Source: a virus (taxonomy: Duplodnaviria; Caudoviricetes). Taken from it: a stretch of 64,000 bases of DNA. The DNA lies in IMG/VR virus record IMGVR_UViG_3300047160_003616, positions 12,649 to 76,648 of that record; one strand, written 5' to 3'. Positions 2,980-61,153 of this stretch are shown piece after piece; within the stretch, counting starts at the first letter, position 1; each line of letters opens with the position of its first letter. A program made the position numbers and the translations under genes. The notes below the pieces were generated by a model, which worked only from the letters and a program-made list of their open reading frames with translations, did no database searches and was not told where the DNA came from.

Positions 2980-3290
2980 GCGACGGCCGTCGCGGAGAGG
3001 CCGTTGGAGGCCACCGTCCACACCCGCCCGCTGGGGTCGGTGACGCCGGTGATCTTCACCGACTCGGGCGTGCTGGCCGTGGTGGTGGTGGCCACCGTGG
3101 CACTGGACGCGGTGATGCTCTGAGTGGACCCGTCGGCGGCGGTCACGTTGACCACAAGGCCGGTCACCGGCTTGGTCGTGGTGGTGCTGGTGGTCAGCAC
3201 ATCCCCACCGGAGATGGTCAGGGTCATGGTGTCCCCGGCGTTGTAGGAGGCTTTGTCGAGCGTGGCGGTGACGTTCCAGGTGTCAGGCAT
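2976..3290 (-). CDS. Thr/Val-rich Ig-like beta-sandwich protein
   Basis: ATLDKASYNAGDTMTLTI; ATGA-coupled to the GH16 gene. Confidence 0.7.
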   Translation of the reverse strand: MPDTWNVTATLDKASYNAGDTMTLTISGGDVLTTSTTTTKPVTGLVVNVTAADGSTQSITASSATVATTTTASTPESVKITGVTDPSGRVWTVASNGLSATAVA

Positions 3291-3362: not shown

Positions 3363-3728
3363 TTAGTCTGGCCAAATTCCCAGCCGCAGGCTGCGCTTGT
3401 GGTGCCACTCGGCCAGCTCGTCGGTGAGCACCCAGACCTTGATCTCCTCGGTGTCCCAGTCGTGCCAGCGCATCCGGGCGTTCACCAACAGGTTGCAGCC
3501 CAGCTTCCATTCCTCGGGGAAGGGTGGCTCGGGGACGGCCAGATCCAGCGTCCAGCGCCCGGCCCGGGTGTTGCCCGCATCGTCGGTTTTCAGCACGGTG
3601 TACTGGTGAGCCAGCGGGGAGCACATGAGCATGTGCACCATGGGCATCTCATCGAAGTAGAGCCGCGGCTCATCCGGCGGCGGGGCCGCGAAGAAGTAGC
3701 ACGGGGTGGACTCGTTGACCTCGGTCAT
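3363..3728 (-). CDS. Hypothetical protein
   Basis: MTEVNE start; operon tiling. Confidence 0.55.
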   Translation of the reverse strand: MTEVNESTPCYFFAAPPPDEPRLYFDEMPMVHMLMCSPLAHQYTVLKTDDAGNTRAGRWTLDLAVPEPPFPEEWKLGCNLLVNARMRWHDWDTEEIKVWVLTDELAEWHHKRSLRLGIWPD

Positions 3729-3729
3729 G

Positions 3730-3882
3730 TCACCAAGTGCACAGCCCGGACAGCTCACGTAACCGCGCCGCATAACGGCGTCCAAGCTGGGCCTGTTCGC
3801 TCATCTCGCGCAGCACGTTGCCGGGCACCTCAAAGAGGCCCCCGCATTCGGCCTCGCAGTCGTGGACCTGGGTCTGGCTCAT
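3730..3882 (-). CDS. Small hypothetical protein (50 aa, below ORF-track cutoff)
   Basis: MSQTQVHDCEAECGG...; ATGA overlap with upstream stop. Confidence 0.5.
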   Translation of the reverse strand: MSQTQVHDCEAECGGLFEVPGNVLREMSEQAQLGRRYAARLRELSGLCTW

Positions 3883-4190: not shown

Positions 4191-4408
4191 CGCAGCGGCT
4201 CCTTCAGTCGGGCCTTGGTGAGCATCATCGAGACCTCCTGTTTGATCTGGTCGACGGTGAAGCCGTCGGGACAAGAGGTGAAGAAGTCCCAGGCGATGGC
4301 CTTCTCCCGGTCGGTCTCGGGCACCAGTAATGTGTTCTCCTCCACCGGCCTGCCCTCCTCATCACGCTCGGTCATCCAGGGTGGCATTCCCTCAGTCCTC
4401 ATGCTCAC
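4187..4408 (-). CDS. Hypothetical protein
   Basis: 73 aa ORF tiling with neighbours. Confidence 0.5.
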   Translation of the reverse strand: MSMRTEGMPPWMTERDEEGRPVEENTLLVPETDREKAIAWDFFTSCPDGFTVDQIKQEVSMMLTKARLKEPLR

Positions 4409-7171: not shown

Positions 7172-7214
7172 ATCCAGGTCTTCCTGTCTGGGGCCATGCC
7201 GTGCAGCGTCCAGC

Positions 7215-15919: not shown

Positions 15920-16648
15920 CTACGGCATGGTGATGCCGTGTGGCACGATCACGTCGCCCTGGGTCATCAGCAGGGTCTCGAAATCGCTGAAGCTCACATC
16001 GAATTGGCCCCTGCGCCCGAAATCCGGGCCCCAACTGGTCAGACAGGTGACCAGCTGAGTGCTGTAGTTGATACCCAGGGCCAGGTACTCATGTCCCCCG
16101 GCCACGTTCTCATCAGTCAGCGCCCCGATATGCACCAGCCCGGAGGGGTCCGGGTTGAACATAGAGCGCGTCCATAATGTGCCCACCAAACATGGCGTGA
16201 CCTGCAAAGCGGCACGAAATTCAGCGAAGCCGAAACAATGCTGGTATCTGTCGGCCCAATTCAACTCCACGGCGGCCTTAGCTATATCCAATCCATCGCT
16301 GCCCCCATCATGGGGCGGATAAAAATACTCCGGGTCGCCCTCCTCGTGGGTGGCCACCGAGTAGAACTGCAGCGCCAGGGACTCGGTGCACCAACTCACC
16401 TTCTTGGCCCGCCGCACCGGGGCGGCGAAGTCGGTATTAAAAAATCCGGCCATCGCATTGCCGGTGCAGGCGTTGGTGTTCCATTGATTCAAAATTGGCT
16501 GGGTATAAGACCACAGCGTCGTTACGTCACGTGACGGTTTGTCGGCCGCAAAGGCGTAGTTAAGCGAGCGCGTGTCGTGATGGATGTGACGCCCCAACCG
16601 GTAGGGCGCATCGGTGGGCACCGGCAATTTATGAATGATCTCGGCCAT
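15920..16648 (-). CDS. Papain-like (C1A-type) cysteine peptidase
   Basis: Q.N.N.C (catalytic Cys), GGHE (His), TSWG in place of NSWG, GRRGQF. Confidence 0.8.
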   Translation of the reverse strand: MAEIIHKLPVPTDAPYRLGRHIHHDTRSLNYAFAADKPSRDVTTLWSYTQPILNQWNTNACTGNAMAGFFNTDFAAPVRRAKKVSWCTESLALQFYSVATHEEGDPEYFYPPHDGGSDGLDIAKAAVELNWADRYQHCFGFAEFRAALQVTPCLVGTLWTRSMFNPDPSGLVHIGALTDENVAGGHEYLALGINYSTQLVTCLTSWGPDFGRRGQFDVSFSDFETLLMTQGDVIVPHGITMP

Positions 16649-16681
16649 AAAAAACCTCCTCTTCTTCGGAGGAGGTTTTTT
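16649..16681. terminator. Bidirectional intrinsic terminator ending the pentamer array
   Basis: AAAAAA-CCTCCTC-7 nt-GAGGAGG-TTTTTT. Confidence 0.85.
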
Positions 16682-16683
16682 GG

Positions 16684-17372
16684 GTAAAGCCCCTGCCTTG
16701 CCGAGCCCGGCCTAGCCACGCCCAACCTGGCCTTGCCAGGCCTTGCCGAGCCCAGCCTTGCCCGGCCGCGCCGCGCCAAGATCTAGCCTCCTCACCTATT
16801 AGGTGGGGAGATGAAGGTAAAACCCCTGCCCTGCCCCGCCGGGCCGAGCCAGGCCGTGCCCGGCCTTGCCGATGCCGCGCCGCGCCAAGCCACGCCCTGC
16901 CTAGCCATGGCAAGTCTGTTGAAAAATTGAGTTGTGATAAAGCCCCTGCCCTGCCATGCCGCGCCTTGGCTAGGCGAGCCACGCCGTGCCATGCCGTGCC
17001 AAGCCTAGCCACGCCTAGCCGGGCCTAGCCGCGCCGGGCCACGGCCTGCCGAGCCCTGCCATGGCAAGTCTGAAGTTGTGTGTAAAACCCCTGCCCTGCC
17101 TAGCCCAGCCGTGCCGGGCCGAGGCCAGCCACGCCGCGCCTAGCCATGCCAGGCCATGCCTCGCCACGTCAAGTCATGAAATTATTGTTAAAGCCCCTGC
17201 CTTGCCTAGCCTCGACACGCCACGCCCAGGCCCGCCCGGCCATGCCAGGCCTCGCCGAGTCCGTGAAAGATTTGAATTGTAGGTAAAGCCCCTGCCTCGC
17301 CGAGCCGAGCCCCAGCCTTGCCTTGCCTCGCCGTGCCACGCCACGCCATGGCTTGCCAAGCCGCGCCCTGCC
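16684..17372 (-). ncRNA. Array of six GGC-NN pentamer-repeat units (candidate guide RNAs, VIPR-like)
   Basis: Units 17283-17372, 17188-17262, 17082-17175, 16937-17072, 16817-16918, 16684-16788; each about 12-24 GGCNN pentamers ending in GGCAGGGG(C/T)TTTA, separated by AT-rich linkers. Confidence 0.85.
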
Positions 17373-17376
17373 ACGA

Positions 17377-17934
17377 TTATTTGTCGCCGAGCAGCCCTTC
17401 CAGTCGTGTCAGCCGTTCCTGCACTTTATCCAGCTCGGTGGTGGTGTGCTCCTTGGTGCTGCGATGATCCTGCTGAATCAGTTGCATCGCTGCGGCCAAC
17501 TCACGCTGTTGCACGTCCAGGCGGCGGCAGAAGTCCACCTGGGCGGCGAATGCCGCCCCCACCACCTCAAAGGCTTGCCGGGCGATGGGGTCCAGGGCCA
17601 ACCAGTCCACATGAGTCACCGCGTTTTGCCCGCGCACCAGAGCCTTGGAGGACTTGCGCTGATGCCGCCGGGCCAGCCGCATGTGCTCGGGGGCCTGAAG
17701 CACGCGATAACCCGTGTTAATCACCGCGTCAATAGCACGGTTGTCGACACGTTCAAACTCGCGGGCGGCCCGCTGGGTGGCCTGTTGCAGCACCCGGCGA
17801 TCCTTATCCCCGTCGAGACCCAGCGCCTCACCCATCGCCTCGTAGGTCAGTGTCCCATCCACGGGGGTGGTCCTGAGCAGGTCGTAGATGACCCGCCAGC
17901 GGGCTCGCTCGTTGAGCGGGGAGAACGGGCTCAT
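17377..17934 (-). CDS. HTH/coiled-coil accessory protein of the RAMP-pentamer locus
   Basis: LTYEAMGEALG winged-HTH-like segment, C-terminal heptads; ATGA-coupled to the RAMP gene; stop 4 nt before the array. Confidence 0.75.
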   Translation of the reverse strand: MSPFSPLNERARWRVIYDLLRTTPVDGTLTYEAMGEALGLDGDKDRRVLQQATQRAAREFERVDNRAIDAVINTGYRVLQAPEHMRLARRHQRKSSKALVRGQNAVTHVDWLALDPIARQAFEVVGAAFAAQVDFCRRLDVQQRELAAAMQLIQQDHRSTKEHTTTELDKVQERLTRLEGLLGDK

Positions 17935-18506
17935 GACTGCTTGACCCCCATCACCTCAAAGCGACCGTAGAGGGGACGACGCTCGCCCAGTCCGATCAAC
18001 AGCCCCGCCGTGGTGGCGATGCGTTCGATGTCCACCAACTCCAGCAGGGCCGTGTCCAGGGTGCCGTTGACCTCCACCGCCCACTCGGGGAACCACGGGC
18101 GCACTCGCATCACCCGGCTGGCCCCCACCTTGACGCTGGCCCGGTAGTAGAACGTGGCCGCGTACAGCTCCTCGACGGTGCGCGGGCCCTTGTAGCCCAG
18201 CGCGATCACGTCGTCCTTGATCAACACGCCCTGCTCCACCTGCTTGCCCTGTTTGGTCTTGCGACCACCCTCGATCAGGCACTTGAAGATGTTGGCACCG
18301 GGGATATAGGGGCCCTCCACTTCATCGAAGTAGATCCCGCCGAAAAACTCGGTGCGGGCCAGCAGGTGATGGTCCTCGTCGGTCTTGTTGCGTTTTCGGG
18401 TCAGGCGCTTGACCTCTTTGGCCGCGGGATCGAGCGGATCGGCCAGCCGGGCACTGTGCATGATCAGCGGACGGGTTCCCCGAAGGGTGAGGGTGAAATC
18501 AATCAT
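17931..18506 (-). CDS. Stand-alone Cas7/RAMP-like protein (Vipr-like)
   Basis: FTLTLRGTRPLIMH (beta1), PYIPGANIFKCL (RAMP P.IP motif), RVRPWF, C-terminal G-loop AGLLIGLGERRPLYGRFEV. Confidence 0.8.
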   Translation of the reverse strand: MIDFTLTLRGTRPLIMHSARLADPLDPAAKEVKRLTRKRNKTDEDHHLLARTEFFGGIYFDEVEGPYIPGANIFKCLIEGGRKTKQGKQVEQGVLIKDDVIALGYKGPRTVEELYAATFYYRASVKVGASRVMRVRPWFPEWAVEVNGTLDTALLELVDIERIATTAGLLIGLGERRPLYGRFEVMGVKQS

Positions 18507-18513
18507 GGCGTAG

Positions 18514-18542
18514 ATGCTATAGGACTGTCACGAGGCGTGCAA
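18514..18542 (-). promoter_or_regulatory. SigA-type promoter, probably leaderless transcript of the RAMP gene
   Basis: TTGCAC-17 nt-TAGCAT; ATG follows 7 nt after the -10 with no SD. Confidence 0.65.
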
Positions 18543-20227: not shown

Positions 20228-20399
20228 AGGCCCCCTCCGGGGGCCGCCAGGCACGCGCCTCATCGAAGCTGCGCAGCTGCACGCAGGGGATGTACTCACG
20301 GGGCTTCCAGATCCACCACCAGTTGTTGCGCTTGCGGCACAGCCATTTGGTGGGGTCATTGGGCCCGACGAAGCCGGGACGGGGCCGGGTGGGGGTCAT
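20220..20399 (-). CDS. Small Trp-rich hypothetical protein
   Basis: 59 aa; ATGA overlap with the HNH stop. Confidence 0.5.
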   Translation of the reverse strand: MTPTRPRPGFVGPNDPTKWLCRKRNNWWWIWKPREYIPCVQLRSFDEARAWRPPEGAYV

Positions 20400-20869
20400 A
20401 CGCGGTCCAGGTCATTATGGGTGAACAGCTCATTGCGTTTGGCGATCACAGCCGCTTCGGCCTCGGGGATGGTGGGAAAACGGCCCGCATGGATGTACTT
20501 GCCATTGTGCTTAACCTGAGCCCTCCATGCCCCCCTAGCCTTATCCCAAATCACTCCCCGCACACCCGATGTACCAGCCGAATTGGGGCCCGACCGATTC
20601 TCCTTGTTCTGCTTACTGGTCACCAAGCGCAGATGAGCAGGGTTGACACAATGCTTGGGACAGGTATGACGATGGTCTAACTCCCGATCATCGGGAATAG
20701 GCCCATGTGCCCACTCGTAAGCAATCCGGTGCCCATACTTCATCGTGCCGCCGAGATAGAACTCGGCATATCCCTTGCAGGTGCGGCCCGCCGTCCACAG
20801 CCAACAATCACCTGAGCGATCTACTTTGCTCCAAAACCGCTCCTCGGTGGTCAATGACCATCTGGGCAT
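20396..20869 (-). CDS. HNH homing endonuclease with AP2-like DNA-binding domain
   Basis: RFWSKVD..CWLW, HRIAY, DH..C...CVNPAHL, N..N; SGVRGV.W...W.A. Confidence 0.9.
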   Translation of the reverse strand: MPRWSLTTEERFWSKVDRSGDCWLWTAGRTCKGYAEFYLGGTMKYGHRIAYEWAHGPIPDDRELDHRHTCPKHCVNPAHLRLVTSKQNKENRSGPNSAGTSGVRGVIWDKARGAWRAQVKHNGKYIHAGRFPTIPEAEAAVIAKRNELFTHNDLDRV

Positions 20870-59568: not shown

Positions 59569-61067
59569 GAGGTCCTCACGAAGTTAACTGGATTACCCGG
59601 CTCGGGGATCAACATCCCGGTGGGATCGCTGCGCTGCCGGGTGATGGACACCGAGATTGTGGACTCCTTGGCCGGGGGATAGTAGGCGATGGCCAGATCC
59701 GGGGTGAACACCATGGCCGCCGAGGAGATGGTCTGCACCGGCAGCTGGTAGCCGGTCGGGGTGGTCTGCCCGCCCAGCGCCAGCACCTGCAGGGTCTTGT
59801 GGTCCACGTAGTCGGCCTGGCTGGTGTAGGGGAAGACATACGGCGTGCCGTCGGGGTTGAGCGCCGGGGGCGTCTGCGGATGGATGCCGTATTTGCCGCC
59901 GGGATAGTTGTCCGGGGAATCAGCGGTCTCAAACGGGATGGTGGCGGTGTACTGCCCGGTCTCGTTGAACACCTGGAAGTTGGCCTCGGTGCGGTAGGTG
60001 CTCATCGGATCGGCGTTGGTGGTGTCGATGGTGCCGTAGGTGACCGAGTCGATAGGGCTGCGCTTGCCCCCGCCCACCAGGTAGTAGTAGCCGAACTCAG
60101 CACTGATATTGAACGCGGTGTAGGGGGCCAGAGTGGGATCGGATTGTGCGTCGTAGAGCCAGGTTTCGCTGGGCAACAGGTCGATGGGCAGCATCTCGGG
60201 CGGCGGCAGCTGGGCCAGTATCGGGGTGGCGGTGACCTTCTTCTCCACCTGGTAGTAGGTGGAGTCGCTGGCGGCGGTCTGCACCGGTATCGGGGAGTTG
60301 ACCGCCAGCCCGTTGGCGTTGACGGTGAAGATCACGTCGATGGGCCCGATCTTGTCCAACATGTCGCGGCACAGCCGGATCTCCTCGGGGGCCAACGGGT
60401 TCTTGTAGGGCCTAATCGCCACCTCGTTGCGCACCCCGCGCTGCTGCACCGACCACGGCGGGCCGTTGGCGGCGACGTAGGTCGCAGCGTCGGCCTCGGT
60501 CTCAAAGATCTCCTCGGCCCCGGTGACCAGGTTGACCGCGACATAGACGGTGGGCGTGGGGGCCCGGCCCAGATCGGCGGTCAGCCCGTAGTTGTCCCGG
60601 TAGCGCCACACCTCGTAGATGTCGCAGTCCACCCCGACGGCGGCCTGGATCGTCATGCGGATGCCGTTGGGCGTGCCGCCGAGGTTGCAGGCCTGGAAGA
60701 AGTCCACGATGCGTGCCCGGTACCAGGCGTCCTTGACCCGGATCTCGTCCCACTGGTCGCTGGTGAGCTGATCGAGCATGCCGTTCCACGGGTAGGACTC
60801 GGCCGGGGAACGGGCCAGGAAGTTGATCTTGCCGAAGATGTAGTCCAGCTCGTTGAAATACACCGTCTGCAGCGCCCCGCCGAGCCGGGCCAGGAACACC
60901 TGGTTGGTCAGCGACCCGGCCCCGGTGGTACCGCACAGCGCGTCCACGAACTTGTACAGGTTGGTGTCAGGCGTTGCGGTGTAGACGTATTCGTCAAAAT
61001 GGGCCAGCCGCGCCTCGGTGGACCGGGGCGGCATGAGCGGGAACGGGTCGGTGGTGCCCACAATCAT
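59565..61067 (-). CDS. Baseplate-associated structural protein
   Basis: 500 aa immediately downstream of baseplate J; LD.IFG, ACN.GGT..GI. Confidence 0.7.
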   Translation of the reverse strand: MIVGTTDPFPLMPPRSTEARLAHFDEYVYTATPDTNLYKFVDALCGTTGAGSLTNQVFLARLGGALQTVYFNELDYIFGKINFLARSPAESYPWNGMLDQLTSDQWDEIRVKDAWYRARIVDFFQACNLGGTPNGIRMTIQAAVGVDCDIYEVWRYRDNYGLTADLGRAPTPTVYVAVNLVTGAEEIFETEADAATYVAANGPPWSVQQRGVRNEVAIRPYKNPLAPEEIRLCRDMLDKIGPIDVIFTVNANGLAVNSPIPVQTAASDSTYYQVEKKVTATPILAQLPPPEMLPIDLLPSETWLYDAQSDPTLAPYTAFNISAEFGYYYLVGGGKRSPIDSVTYGTIDTTNADPMSTYRTEANFQVFNETGQYTATIPFETADSPDNYPGGKYGIHPQTPPALNPDGTPYVFPYTSQADYVDHKTLQVLALGGQTTPTGYQLPVQTISSAAMVFTPDLAIAYYPPAKESTISVSITRQRSDPTGMLIPEPGNPVNFVRTS

Positions 61068-61094: not shown

Positions 61095-61153
61095 GGCTGG
61101 GCCAGGCTGGACATGACCAGGCGGGGCCTGGCAAGGCAAGGCAAGGGTTTTAC
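61095..61153 (+). ncRNA. Orphan GGC-NN pentamer unit (seventh copy)
   Basis: 10 pentamers ending GGCAA-GGGTTTTAC; TAAAAT at 61079-84 upstream. Confidence 0.7.

What the first reader, a model, noticed from the sequence alone, without database searches (positions are those of the whole stretch)
16649..18542. Compact phage RNA-guided system candidate: solo Cas7/RAMP-like gene + accessory gene + GGC-NN pentamer array + terminator
Seen: one minus-strand unit made of a SigA-like promoter (TTGCAC-17-TAGCAT, apparently leaderless), a 191 aa gene, a coupled 185 aa gene, six repeat units starting 4 nt after its stop, and a strong terminator. Each unit is a run of GGC-NN pentamers with variable NN and a conserved 3' tail GGCAGGGG(C/T)TTTA; units are separated by AT-rich linkers. 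Established: the protein carries RAMP/Cas7 hallmarks (N-terminal beta strand, P.IP motif, C-terminal G-rich loop), and Cas7 proteins polymerise along RNA with a fixed period. Inference: the array yields small RNAs on which the protein binds each constant GGC and displays each NN as a guide. No Cas1/Cas2 or canonical CRISPR is in the window. I recall recent reports of phage VIPR systems with GGY/NN RNAs that fit this layout, so novelty must be checked against the literature.
Basis: partly seen in the sequence, partly recalled or inferred. Interest (0 to 1): 0.97.

Follow-up and report, generated by a model that had tools for sequence, protein, structure and literature searches.

The report
Phage VIPR RNA-guided silencing locus
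This is a genuine new example, in a mycobacteriophage-like virus, of the VIPR system first described in 2026 (a small Cas7-like protein, a DNA-binding helper and guide RNAs built of GGC-NN pentamers), and at least two of its guides spell conserved motifs of rival phages' recombination exonuclease genes.

Summary
The 191-aa protein matches the solved SUSP1 Vipr protein over its full length (E 1e-32) and folds as a Cas7-type RAMP (pLDDT 95). The 185-aa partner is a winged-helix plus coiled-coil protein homologous to the gene that follows vipr in other actinophages and, more weakly, to SUSP1 vap1. The six units hold 106 pentamers and an orphan seventh unit 44 kb away holds 10: position 1 is G in 100%, position 3 is C in 98%, and positions 4-5 are almost fully random. 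In 71 of 80 homologous viral loci such tracts lie on the vipr strand (4 of 80 on the other strand).

Under the published 1-nt-skip rule only, guide D reads a RecE-like exonuclease motif (33/44, z 9.6), guide A reads a second exonuclease motif (24/30), and guide F matches the phage's own neighbouring protease gene at 75%, in codon register. No target reaching 90% was found.

Verdict: a new member of a known kind (VIPR, type II-like; bioRxiv April 2026). Minor variations are a short unstructured tail, a conserved GACTTG leader and an E-R G-loop. This scan has already noted VIPR loci in more than 220 other genomes.

The parts
18514..18542 (-). Promoter-like site: TTGCAC (18542-18537), a 17-nt spacer, TAGCAT (18519-18514), then 7 nt to the vipr ATG, which would give a leaderless or near-leaderless mRNA
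   Evidence: Read from the sequence. Consensus-level only: the scan tool did not call it because the -35 has 3 of 6 matches. The TANNNT -10 rule for mycobacteria is from general knowledge.
17931..18506 (-). vipr: 191-aa Cas7-like RAMP protein (Vipr)
   Evidence: PDB 36pp_D 'SUSP1 Vipr protein', E 9.9e-33 over residues 6-186; phrog_4652, E 5e-51; AF2 pLDDT 95.2; Foldseek top hits Cmr4/Csm3, probability 1.0; H17, K33 and R136 conserved.
17377..17934 (-). vap: 185-aa accessory protein with an N-terminal winged helix (about residues 9-80) and a long C-terminal coiled coil, translationally coupled to vipr (ATGA overlap)
   Evidence: Homologous to the gene after vipr in LittleE (3e-21), prophiBWHA-1 (8e-21), MakoManhole (7e-14) and SUSP1 gp038 (0.002); hhalign to SUSP1 vap1 87.5%, E 3.6e-6; AF2 pLDDT 91; winged-helix match to PurR Z 8.7, rmsd 2.3.
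17284..17372 (-). vrRNA unit A: 15 guide pentamers with one bulged G, plus the tail GGCAG-GGGCTTTA
   Evidence: Parsed. Under the 1-nt skip rule it matches an exonuclease ORF (motif WSVTTILKA) in IMG/VR contig G002 at 24/30, in frame.
17189..17261 (-). vrRNA unit B: 11 guide pentamers plus tail
   Evidence: No target found.
17083..17175 (-). vrRNA unit C: leader GACTT GACGT, 14 guide pentamers, tail
   Evidence: No target found.
16938..17070 (-). vrRNA unit D: leader GACTT GCCAT, 22 guide pentamers, tail. The longest guide.
   Evidence: Decodes to ..VIVNYTYGYAGTLDL... tblastn hits only RecE-like exonucleases. Scores 33/44 on independently collected exonuclease loci, z 9.6, at 1-nt skip only.
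16818..16916 (-). vrRNA unit E: leader, 7 + 8 guide pentamers separated by one bulged C, tail
   Evidence: No target found.
16685..16777 (-). vrRNA unit F: 16 guide pentamers plus tail, preceded by an imperfect 10-bp hairpin in the E-F linker (16788-16810)
   Evidence: Matches the phage's own cysteine-protease gene at 24/32, in codon register.
16649..16675 (-). Intrinsic terminator closing the operon: 7-bp stem, 7-nt loop, T6. It has an A-run before and a T-run after, so it is bidirectional.
61095..61152 (+). Orphan (solo) vrRNA unit: 10 pentamers plus the tail GGCAA-GGGTTTTA, with TAAAAT 10 nt upstream, 44 kb from the array on the other strand
   Evidence: Solo vrRNAs are described for SUSP1-family phages. 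No target found.
16209..16255 (.). Site in the neighbouring 242-aa cysteine-protease gene (15920-16648, minus strand) that guide F matches at 75%, in wobble-skipping register. It is probably the self version of guide F's true target.
   Evidence: 0 of 500 shuffles; z 5.9 at 1-nt skip; peptidase phrog_16701, 1.8e-39. That this site is related to the true target is an inference.

Best explanation
The locus is a VIPR (Viral Interference Programmable Repeat) system of the SUSP1 type (type II-like). It sits on a fragment (about half) of a myovirus distantly related to the cluster C mycobacteriophages.

Proposed mechanism: one minus-strand transcript runs from a promoter just upstream of vipr to the terminator at 16649. 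It encodes Vipr, the winged-helix accessory protein Vap and six vrRNAs, and a seventh vrRNA is made from a solo gene 44 kb away. The precursor is cut in the AT-rich linkers. Vipr protomers then polymerise along each vrRNA, one per pentamer, burying G-G-C and presenting each NN. The filament binds double-stranded DNA whose sequence reads NN-x-NN-x (one skipped base per repeat) and blocks transcription there, with Vap assisting.

Because the skipped base falls on the codon wobble position, the guides read conserved protein motifs. Guides D and A read two motifs of RecE-like recombination exonuclease genes, which this contig does not carry itself. Guide F reads a variant of the phage's own neighbouring cysteine-protease gene. 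The likely role is to silence genes of competing phages or prophages in the same cell.

Shown here: homology, fold, array architecture, linkage, and the skip-rule-specific matches. Inferred from the SUSP1 work: filament formation, dsDNA binding and silencing. Inferred without direct support: precursor processing and the identity of the real targets.
For: Protein:
- E 9.9e-33 to solved SUSP1 Vipr over the whole length.
- pLDDT 95.2 model whose best structural matches are all Cas7 RAMPs (Cmr4, Csm3; probability 1.0, TM about 0.5).
- The SUSP1 RNA/DNA-contact residues H17, K33, R138 and R179 are conserved here as H17, K33, R136 and R177.

Vap:
- Homologous to the vipr-adjacent gene in four actinophages and to SUSP1 vap1.
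- Winged-helix fold, as published for type II vaps.

RNA:
- 116 pentamers with invariant G1, Y3 and random N4N5, and a conserved 3' tail on all seven units.
- Guide bodies fold no better than shuffles, as expected for a protein-coated guide.

Linkage: 71 of 80 IMG/VR Vipr loci carry tracts of at least 5 units on the vipr strand, versus 4 of 80 on the opposite strand.

Context:
- Virus record with baseplate and helicase genes 46-57% identical to cluster C mycobacteriophages.
- No Cas1 or Cas2.

Targeting:
- Signal appears only at 1-nt skip: D z 9.6, A z 7.6, F z 5.9, versus |z| at most 1.2 at skips 0 and 2 for all three guides and at skip 3 for D and A. Guide F's perfect skip-3 score is just the array's own DNA.
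- All three matches are in the reading frame with the skip on the wobble base. This is the published signature.
- No self-match reaches 80%, as in the paper.
Against: - No expression, processing or binding data exist for this locus.
- The G-loop reads G-L-G-E-R-R-P-L-Y where the family consensus and SUSP1 have G-x-G-D-W-R-P-R-F. The G1-contacting Asp is Glu, and the G2-stacking Trp is Arg.
- The Y3-pocket residues E71/M72 are A/N here.
- The tail is short and has no detectable pseudoknot or hairpin, unlike SUSP1.
- No target with at least 90% NN match was found in any collection. The best are 75-80%, a level that carriers may tolerate (guide F on its own gene; caution).
- Four of the seven guides have no candidate target.
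- The host is unknown.
Confidence: 0.93

Rival explanations
1. A decaying or inactive VIPR remnant: the genes and repeats are inherited, but the protein no longer binds GGY RNA, so the locus does nothing.
For: Two residues that contact the guanines in SUSP1 are replaced (D177 to E, W178 to R), and D is nearly invariant (at least 90%) in the family alignment. No high-identity target was found.
Against: - Both ORFs are intact and translationally coupled.
- The same E-R-R-P-L-Y loop is kept in relatives at 97% and 87% identity, and another clade also lacks the Trp (P0119).
- All seven units keep G1 at 100% and Y3 at 100%, plus the tail.
- Three guides still show skip-1-specific, in-frame matches.
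Confidence: 0.04
2. The system regulates the phage's own genes rather than rivals: guide F binds the adjacent cysteine-protease gene and times its expression.
For: Guide F's only above-chance match anywhere is in the gene directly downstream of the array: 24/32, in frame, 0 of 500 shuffles.
Against: - Eight of 32 guide bases mismatch, spread over six of the 16 NN dinucleotides.
- The published criterion for a target is at least 80%, and no self-hits passed it in 200-odd published guides.
- In SUSP1, disturbing NN pairing abolished silencing.
- Guides A and D point at genes the contig lacks.
Confidence: 0.08
3. The repeat region is not a guide array but a protein-coding or structural GC-rich tandem repeat. 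The ORF listing shows ORFs full of A-R-L-G / A-R-H-G repeats across it, and such a tract was annotated as the N-terminus of Trine gp40.
For: ORFs of 50-127 aa are open across the array in two frames of the minus strand. The annotated Trine gp40 N-terminus is such a translation.
Against: - Conservation is at the nucleotide level (G-G-C fixed, NN random), which in a 15-nt period gives no fixed peptide.
- Each unit is interrupted by an AT-rich linker, and two units shift phase by one base.
- The same tracts accompany vipr in 71 of 80 loci, always on its strand and in intergenic positions.
- SUSP1 tracts were shown to be small RNAs bound by Vipr.
Confidence: 0.01
4. A Cas7-like protein acting as in type III CRISPR, i.e. 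RNA-guided RNA binding or cleavage with contiguous pairing, rather than gapped dsDNA recognition.
For: The closest solved folds apart from Vipr are the RNA-targeting Csm3/Cmr4 subunits.
Against: - Sequence identity to those is 9-14%, against 36% to SUSP1 Vipr.
- There is no Cas10/Cas5/Cas11, CRISPR array, Cas1 or Cas2.
- Contiguous (skip 0) reading of the guides gives no signal, whereas skip 1 does.
- The guide matches found here fall on either strand relative to the coding sense only in the way expected for DNA targeting. That point was not decisive here.
Confidence: 0.02

Closest known systems
Type II VIPR of Escherichia phage SUSP1 and the Pseudomonas fulva prophage (bioRxiv 10.64898/2026.04.26.720920; structures in 10.64898/2026.04.26.720927; biology in 10.64898/2026.10.15.759431)
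   Same: - Vipr protein homologous over its full length (36% identity, E 1e-32).
- Same gene order: vipr, vap, then a downstream vrRNA array, plus a separate vrRNA elsewhere.
- GGY/NN pentamers with an invariant 3' tail.
- vap1-like winged-helix partner.
- Phage-borne.
- Guides read conserved coding motifs with the skipped base on the wobble position.
- No self-targeting at 80% or above.
   Different: - High-GC actinophage host range.
- Y is C in 98% of units (mostly T in SUSP1).
- Guides of up to 22-23 repeats (9-16 in SUSP1).
- Short tail (GGCAG-GGGYTTTA) with no predicted pseudoknot or hairpin.
- Conserved in-phase leader GACTTGNCNT before the guide.
- G-loop E-R instead of D-W.
- Candidate targets are RecE-like exonuclease genes and a protease allele, rather than a satellite recombinase or prophage regulators.
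Unannotated vipr-vap loci of cultured actinophages (Gordonia phage MakoManhole gp78-77, Mycobacterium phage LittleE gp34-33, Gordonia phage Trine gp41-40, prophiBWHA-1 gp43-42)
   Same: Vipr 42-53% identical; vap homologous; GGYNN tracts on the same strand flanking the genes.
   Different: In those phages each guide is followed by a tRNA-like acceptor/T-arm minihelix. The window and its nearest IMG/VR relative L042 lack that element and instead use AT-rich linkers with the GACTTG leader.
Class 1 CRISPR backbone subunits Cas7 / Csm3 / Cmr4
   Same: RRM-core RAMP fold with G-rich loop and thumb, and polymerisation along a guide RNA with a fixed period (fold match; mechanism).
   Different: No CRISPR repeats or spacers, no Cas1/2/5/6/10/11. 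The period is 5 nt with three bases sequestered, not 6 nt with one flipped. The target is gapped dsDNA, and the system is virus-encoded.

Membership tests
VIPR system | Vipr protein: sequence homolog of the founding Vipr family | tested here: met
   phmmer E 9.9e-33 to PDB 36pp_D (SUSP1 Vipr), residues 6-186 against 6-188; tblastn 36% identity to the SUSP1 gene.
VIPR system | Minimal RAMP fold (single RRM core, G-rich loop, thumb), with no second RRM | tested here: met
   AF2 pLDDT 95.2, 191 aa, one beta-alpha core plus a beta-hairpin at 120-150. Foldseek: 57 hits at E<=1e-3, and all the listed top hits are Cas7-family RAMP subunits (one is Cmr1). A G-rich loop G-L-G-E-R-R-P is present.
VIPR system | Residues that hold G1, G2, Y3 and the skipped base in SUSP1 (H17, D177, R138, W178, R179, E71/M72, K33) | tested here: inconclusive
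   H17, K33, R138 (R136 here) and R179 (R177 here) are conserved. D177 is E, W178 is R, and E71/M72 are A/N. Whether E/R can replace D/W cannot be judged from sequence.
VIPR system | vrRNA: at least 4 tandem YNNGG (GGY/NN) repeats with conserved GGY and hypervariable NN | tested here: met
   Seven units of 10-25 pentamers: G1 100%, G2 85%, Y3 100%; N4 and N5 entropy 1.93 and 2.00 bits.
VIPR system | Invariant 3' tail capping the repeat tract | tested here: met
   GGCAG-GGG(C/T)TTTA on all six array units, and GGCAA-GGGTTTTA on the orphan.
VIPR system (SUSP1 clade only) | Tail folds into a pseudoknot | tested here: not met
   The consensus fold of tail plus linker is -1.7 kcal/mol with 7 weak pairs, and no hairpin appears in the single folds. 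This is a clade trait, not a family-defining one: other clades end in hairpins or T-arm-like elements.
VIPR system | Compact locus with a vap accessory gene and without cas genes or a CRISPR array | tested here: met
   vap homology. No Cas1 or Cas2 in the 76.6-kb record. The only repeats are the pentamer units. The record is about 51% complete, so absence holds for the fragment only.
VIPR system | Encoded by a virus or provirus | tested here: met
   The record is a virus contig. Baseplate J is 56% and helicase 46% identical to cluster C mycobacteriophages.
VIPR system | Guides match natural DNA under the 1-nt skip rule, typically in coding sequence with the skip on the wobble base | tested here: met
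   Skip 1 gives z 9.6 (D), 7.6 (A) and 5.9 (F), whereas skips 0, 2 and 3 give none. All three are in frame. The best identities are only 75-80%.
VIPR system | vrRNAs are expressed as about 100-nt RNAs and co-purify with Vipr; the RNP binds dsDNA and silences transcription | not testable with these tools
   Shown for SUSP1 and P. fulva only.
VIPR type II | Placement in the type II clade of the Vipr tree, with a vap1-type DNA-binding partner | tested here: inconclusive
   Full-length similarity to the type II exemplar, and vap similarity to vap1 (hhalign 87.5%, 59 columns). The published tree and tables were not available.
Class 1 CRISPR-Cas effector (Cas7 backbone) | Cas7 encoded with other effector subunits next to a CRISPR repeat-spacer array | tested here: not met
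   No other cas genes or CRISPR repeats in the window. Sequence identity to Csm3/Cmr4 is 9-14%.

The most novel reading that the evidence does not exclude
This lineage (the window plus IMG/VR locus L042) represents a distinct VIPR array design. Its guides have no structured tail and no ribozyme or tRNA-like separator. Instead they carry a conserved GACTTG leader and AT-rich linkers, which implies biogenesis by a host single-strand endonuclease plus Vipr protection. In addition, guide F is aimed at sister phages' allele of the phage's own neighbouring protease gene, so that self is spared by mismatches at only 6 of the guide's 16 NN dinucleotides. That would make it an RNA-guided device for competition between close kin.
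Probability: 0.3. Interest if true: 0.5.

Novelty: new member of a known kind. Interest (0 to 1): 0.33.

Why it matters
VIPR was published only in 2026 and has been characterised experimentally only in Proteobacteria. This locus shows an intact system of the same type in a Mycobacteriales-type myovirus, with a partner gene family shared by cultured Mycobacterium and Gordonia phages (LittleE, MakoManhole, Trine). Those phages can be tested directly in M. smegmatis or Gordonia.

The skip-1-specific, in-frame matches are an independent computational confirmation of the published recognition code in a distant clade. They also suggest that RecE-like recombination exonucleases are a target of inter-phage silencing among actinophages.

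The natural G-loop variant (E-R for D-W) and the unstructured tail could help define what Vipr minimally needs in its RNA. None of this changes the concept: it extends a known system.

Tried and rejected
- **Family libraries:** Pfam has no family for either protein. Rfam has nothing in the array, nor in the relatives' separators, even at E 1. ARAGORN finds no tRNA in the window.
- **Exact 11-NN pattern of guide D:** 0 hits in viral, genome and metagenome contigs.
- **8-NN cores of D and A:** these retrieved 83 and 50 viral loci, but none exceeded 75-80% over the full guide. L218 (24/30 for A) was rejected as chance: 37% GC, with stop codons in that frame.
- **Last metagenome scan:** returned only a 2-kb fragment without an array.
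- **Homologs of the protease gene:** at most 42% identical, too distant to test guide F.
- **Other guides on the matched contigs:** the whole contigs of the two exonuclease-bearing phages were scanned, and no other guide matches them.
- **Internal promoters for each unit:** only one linker has a consensus-like site, so per-unit transcription was rejected in favour of processing.
- **Conserved tail structure:** not supported.
- **Supplementary tables of the discovery paper:** not held, so I could not check whether actinophage loci or this protein are already listed.
Full report
**What is there.** On the minus strand, a 191-aa ORF (18506-17931) overlaps by ATGA a 185-aa ORF (17934-17377). Four nucleotides after its stop codon the first of six repeat units begins. 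Each unit ends in GGCAGGGG(C/T)TTTA (tail ends at 17284, 17189, 17083, 16938, 16818 and 16685). A 7-bp GC hairpin with a T6 run (16675-16649) closes the block.

Parsing backwards from the tails gives 12-23 guide pentamers per unit. Units A and E each contain one extra base that shifts the phase, and units B-E start with an in-phase leader (GACTT GCCAT or a variant). Over 116 pentamers (106 in the six units plus 10 in a seventh unit described below), position 1 is G in 100%, position 2 is G in 85% and position 3 is C in 98%. Positions 4 and 5 carry 1.93 and 2.00 bits of entropy. Perfect GGYNN runs of four or more units occur 14 times in the 76.6-kb genome, ten of them in this array, against 1.3 expected in shuffles.

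The proposed promoter (TTGCAC-17-TAGCAT, ending 7 nt before the ATG) is there as written. It is only a consensus-level match, and the scanner did not call it.

**What the proteins are.** The 191-aa protein has no Pfam family. It belongs to phrog_4652 and matches the solved 'SUSP1 Vipr protein' (PDB 36pp) at E 9.9e-33 over its whole length. With 52 homologs as the alignment, AlphaFold gives pLDDT 95.2. Foldseek against the PDB copy, which predates the VIPR entries, returns almost only Cas7-family RAMPs: Cmr4 and Csm3, probability 1.0, TM about 0.5, 9-14% identity.

The cryo-EM paper names the SUSP1 residues that hold the GGY bases and the skipped target base. Here H17, K33, R138 (R136) and R179 (R177) are conserved. 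D177 is Glu, W178 is Arg, and E71/M72 are Ala/Asn. The E-R-R-P-L-Y loop is shared with the 97%-identical relative, but it is unusual in the family, whose consensus is D-W-R-P-R-F.

The 185-aa protein also has no Pfam family. It is homologous to the gene that directly follows vipr in four actinophages:
- Mycobacterium phage LittleE (3e-21)
- prophiBWHA-1 (8e-21)
- Gordonia phage MakoManhole (7e-14, annotated 'DNA binding protein')
- Gordonia phage Trine (1e-9)

It is also homologous to SUSP1 gp038, the published vap1: E 0.002 directly, 2e-7 through LittleE, and hhalign 87.5% at E 3.6e-6. Its model (pLDDT 91) is a winged helix (residues about 9-80; PurR Z 8.7, rmsd 2.3 Å; also ScpB, BirA and OmpR-type domains) followed by a long coiled coil. 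This agrees with the paper's description of type II vaps as WH-like DNA binders. A Z near 8 is modest support.

**Linkage and context.** Of 80 IMG/VR loci encoding Vipr relatives (40-58% identical), 71 carry at least one tract of five or more GGYNN units on the vipr strand, and 4 do on the opposite strand.

The window lies in a linear virus record estimated at 51% complete. Its baseplate J and helicase are 56% and 46% identical to those of the cluster C mycobacteriophages. So this is a fragment of a large myovirus of some member of the Mycobacteriales, host unknown. No Cas1 or Cas2 is present.

A seventh unit of ten pentamers, with the tail GGCAA-GGGTTTTA and TAAAAT 10 nt upstream, lies alone at 61095-61152 on the plus strand. 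Solo vrRNAs are already described for SUSP1-family phages.

**How it compares with the published family.** VIPR systems were reported in April 2026. They consist of a Vipr RAMP, a vap gene and vrRNAs of alternating GGY/NN with an invariant tail. One Vipr protomer binds each repeat, GGY is sequestered and NN is presented. The RNP recognises dsDNA that reads NN-x-NN-x and silences transcription. The window fits every testable defining feature (see the membership table).

It differs in detail:
- Y is almost always C.
- Guides reach 22-23 repeats.
- The tail is short and shows no conserved structure (consensus -1.7 kcal/mol; single folds at z -0.4 to -1.8, with unit F at -3.1).

Tails are clade-specific. 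Across the 84 related loci screened (the 80 IMG/VR loci plus four cultured actinophages), they are GC hairpins, tRNA-like elements or, in SUSP1, a pseudoknot. Only L042, the nearest IMG/VR relative (58% Vipr identity), shares the window's design, including the conserved leader ...ACTTC(A)GACTTG... before each guide.

Only one linker has a promoter-like site, and there is a single strong terminator. I therefore infer one precursor transcript cut in the AT-rich linkers. This step is not supported by data.

**Targets.** Following the paper's method, I replaced each GGY by one wildcard. Against the phage's own genome no guide reaches 80%.

*Guide D.* Read on the complementary strand as codons, guide D spells ..V-I-V-N-Y-T-Y-G-Y-A-G-T-L-D-L.. 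A tblastn of that peptide hits only genes annotated as exonuclease or RecE-like exonuclease in Gordonia, Rhodococcus and Mycobacterium phages.
- On 36 exonuclease loci collected by protein similarity alone, guide D scores 33/44. Shuffled-order controls give 24.7 ± 0.9 with a maximum of 28 (0 of 1000).
- The best site (IMG/VR contig G001) is in frame in a 277-codon ORF, with 14 of 15 consecutive NN perfect.

*Guide A.* It matches a different exonuclease (contig G002, motif W-S-V-T-T-I-L-K-A) at 24/30, in frame, if its extra G is treated as a bulge in the guide.

*Guide F.* It matches the phage's own neighbouring 242-aa cysteine-protease gene (phrog_16701) at 24/32, exactly in codon register (0 of 500 shuffles). 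The guide decodes to D-R-Y-T-H-C-F-S-F-D-Q-F-R-A-A where the phage has D-R-Y-Q-H-C-F-G-F-A-E-F-R-A-A.

*Skip-rule control.* For all three guides the signal exists only at one skipped base (z 9.6, 7.6 and 5.9). At 0, 2 or 3 skips it is absent. The perfect 3-skip score of F is simply the array's own DNA.

The contig has no RecE-like exonuclease. The two matched phage contigs have no GGYNN tracts and are matched by one guide each.

*Limits.* Exact 11-NN searches found nothing in three collections, and no site reaches 90%. So the true targets are not in hand. A later check recorded in this scan warns that matches near 80% can be tolerated, and guide F on its own gene illustrates that. I rate 'guides D and A are directed at RecE-like exonuclease genes of other phages' at about 0.7, and 'guide F is directed at a sister allele of the protease gene' at about 0.4.

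**Verdict.** The locus is a bona fide VIPR system, type II-like, and a new member of a known kind. Its high interest score is not warranted, because the kind has been in print since April 2026 and this scan has already noted it in more than 220 genomes.

Modestly new features are the actinophage setting, the unstructured tail with the GACTTG leader, the E-R G-loop, and the exonuclease and protease target candidates.

The discovery paper's tables were not available.

Noticed in passing
L002:2745-2800, 2900-2955, 4370-4400; L001:2985-3030, 3095-3140; L004:3585-3630, 3705-3750; L005:2875-2915: In the cultured actinophages LittleE, MakoManhole, Trine and prophiBWHA-1, each vrRNA is followed by a tRNA-like minihelix: a 5-6-bp acceptor-like stem stacked on a T-arm with loop UUCGAnU. 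The stem sequences differ between phages, so the pairing is kept by compensatory changes. 24 of 195 tracts in the 84 related loci screened have the T-arm motif within 90 nt. ARAGORN and Rfam do not call them, and the discovery paper's text never mentions tRNA (it lists hammerhead-interspersed, staggered and single arrays). They may recruit RNase P or RNase Z to cut the array.
   Followed up: partly
L004:3591-3920 (Gordonia phage Trine gp40): The first ~110 residues of the annotated gp40 (…ARHGTARRGKARLGKA…) are a translation of a vrRNA tract and its tRNA-like element. The vap-homologous part starts near residue 110. The annotated start is probably wrong, and in Trine a vrRNA sits between vipr and vap.
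   Followed up: partly
L002:2563-2952 (Mycobacterium phage LittleE gp35): The annotated gp35 CDS lies on the strand opposite to two upstream vrRNA units and their tRNA-like elements, and may be a spurious call.
   Followed up: no
window 16648-16675: The 3' arm of the operon terminator (GAGGAGG) lies 6 nt upstream of the ATG of the cysteine-protease gene (16648). The same bases could therefore serve as its ribosome-binding site, hidden when the hairpin forms.
   Followed up: no
window 16788-16810 (minus strand): There is an imperfect 10-bp hairpin (loop AAT, no T run) in the linker between units E and F. It is the only linker with such a structure and the only one lacking the ACAAYTYCA...GACTTG pattern.
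   Followed up: no
window 16629-17374 (minus strand): the ORF listing reports several 50-127-aa ORFs across the array, full of A-R-L-G / A-R-H-G repeats. They are by-products of the 15-nt periodicity, and gene callers may annotate them as proteins.
   Followed up: yes
window 60872-60891 (minus strand) and genome position 7176-7195 (outside the window): Two isolated runs of four GGYNN units without a tail. The number is close to the chance expectation (1.3 per genome), so they are probably not guides.
   Followed up: partly
window 20396-20869 (minus strand): An HNH endonuclease gene (phrog_3593, E 1e-63) lies 1.9 kb upstream of vipr. HNH genes also flank the vipr loci of MakoManhole, prophiBWHA-1 and SUSP1.
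   Followed up: no
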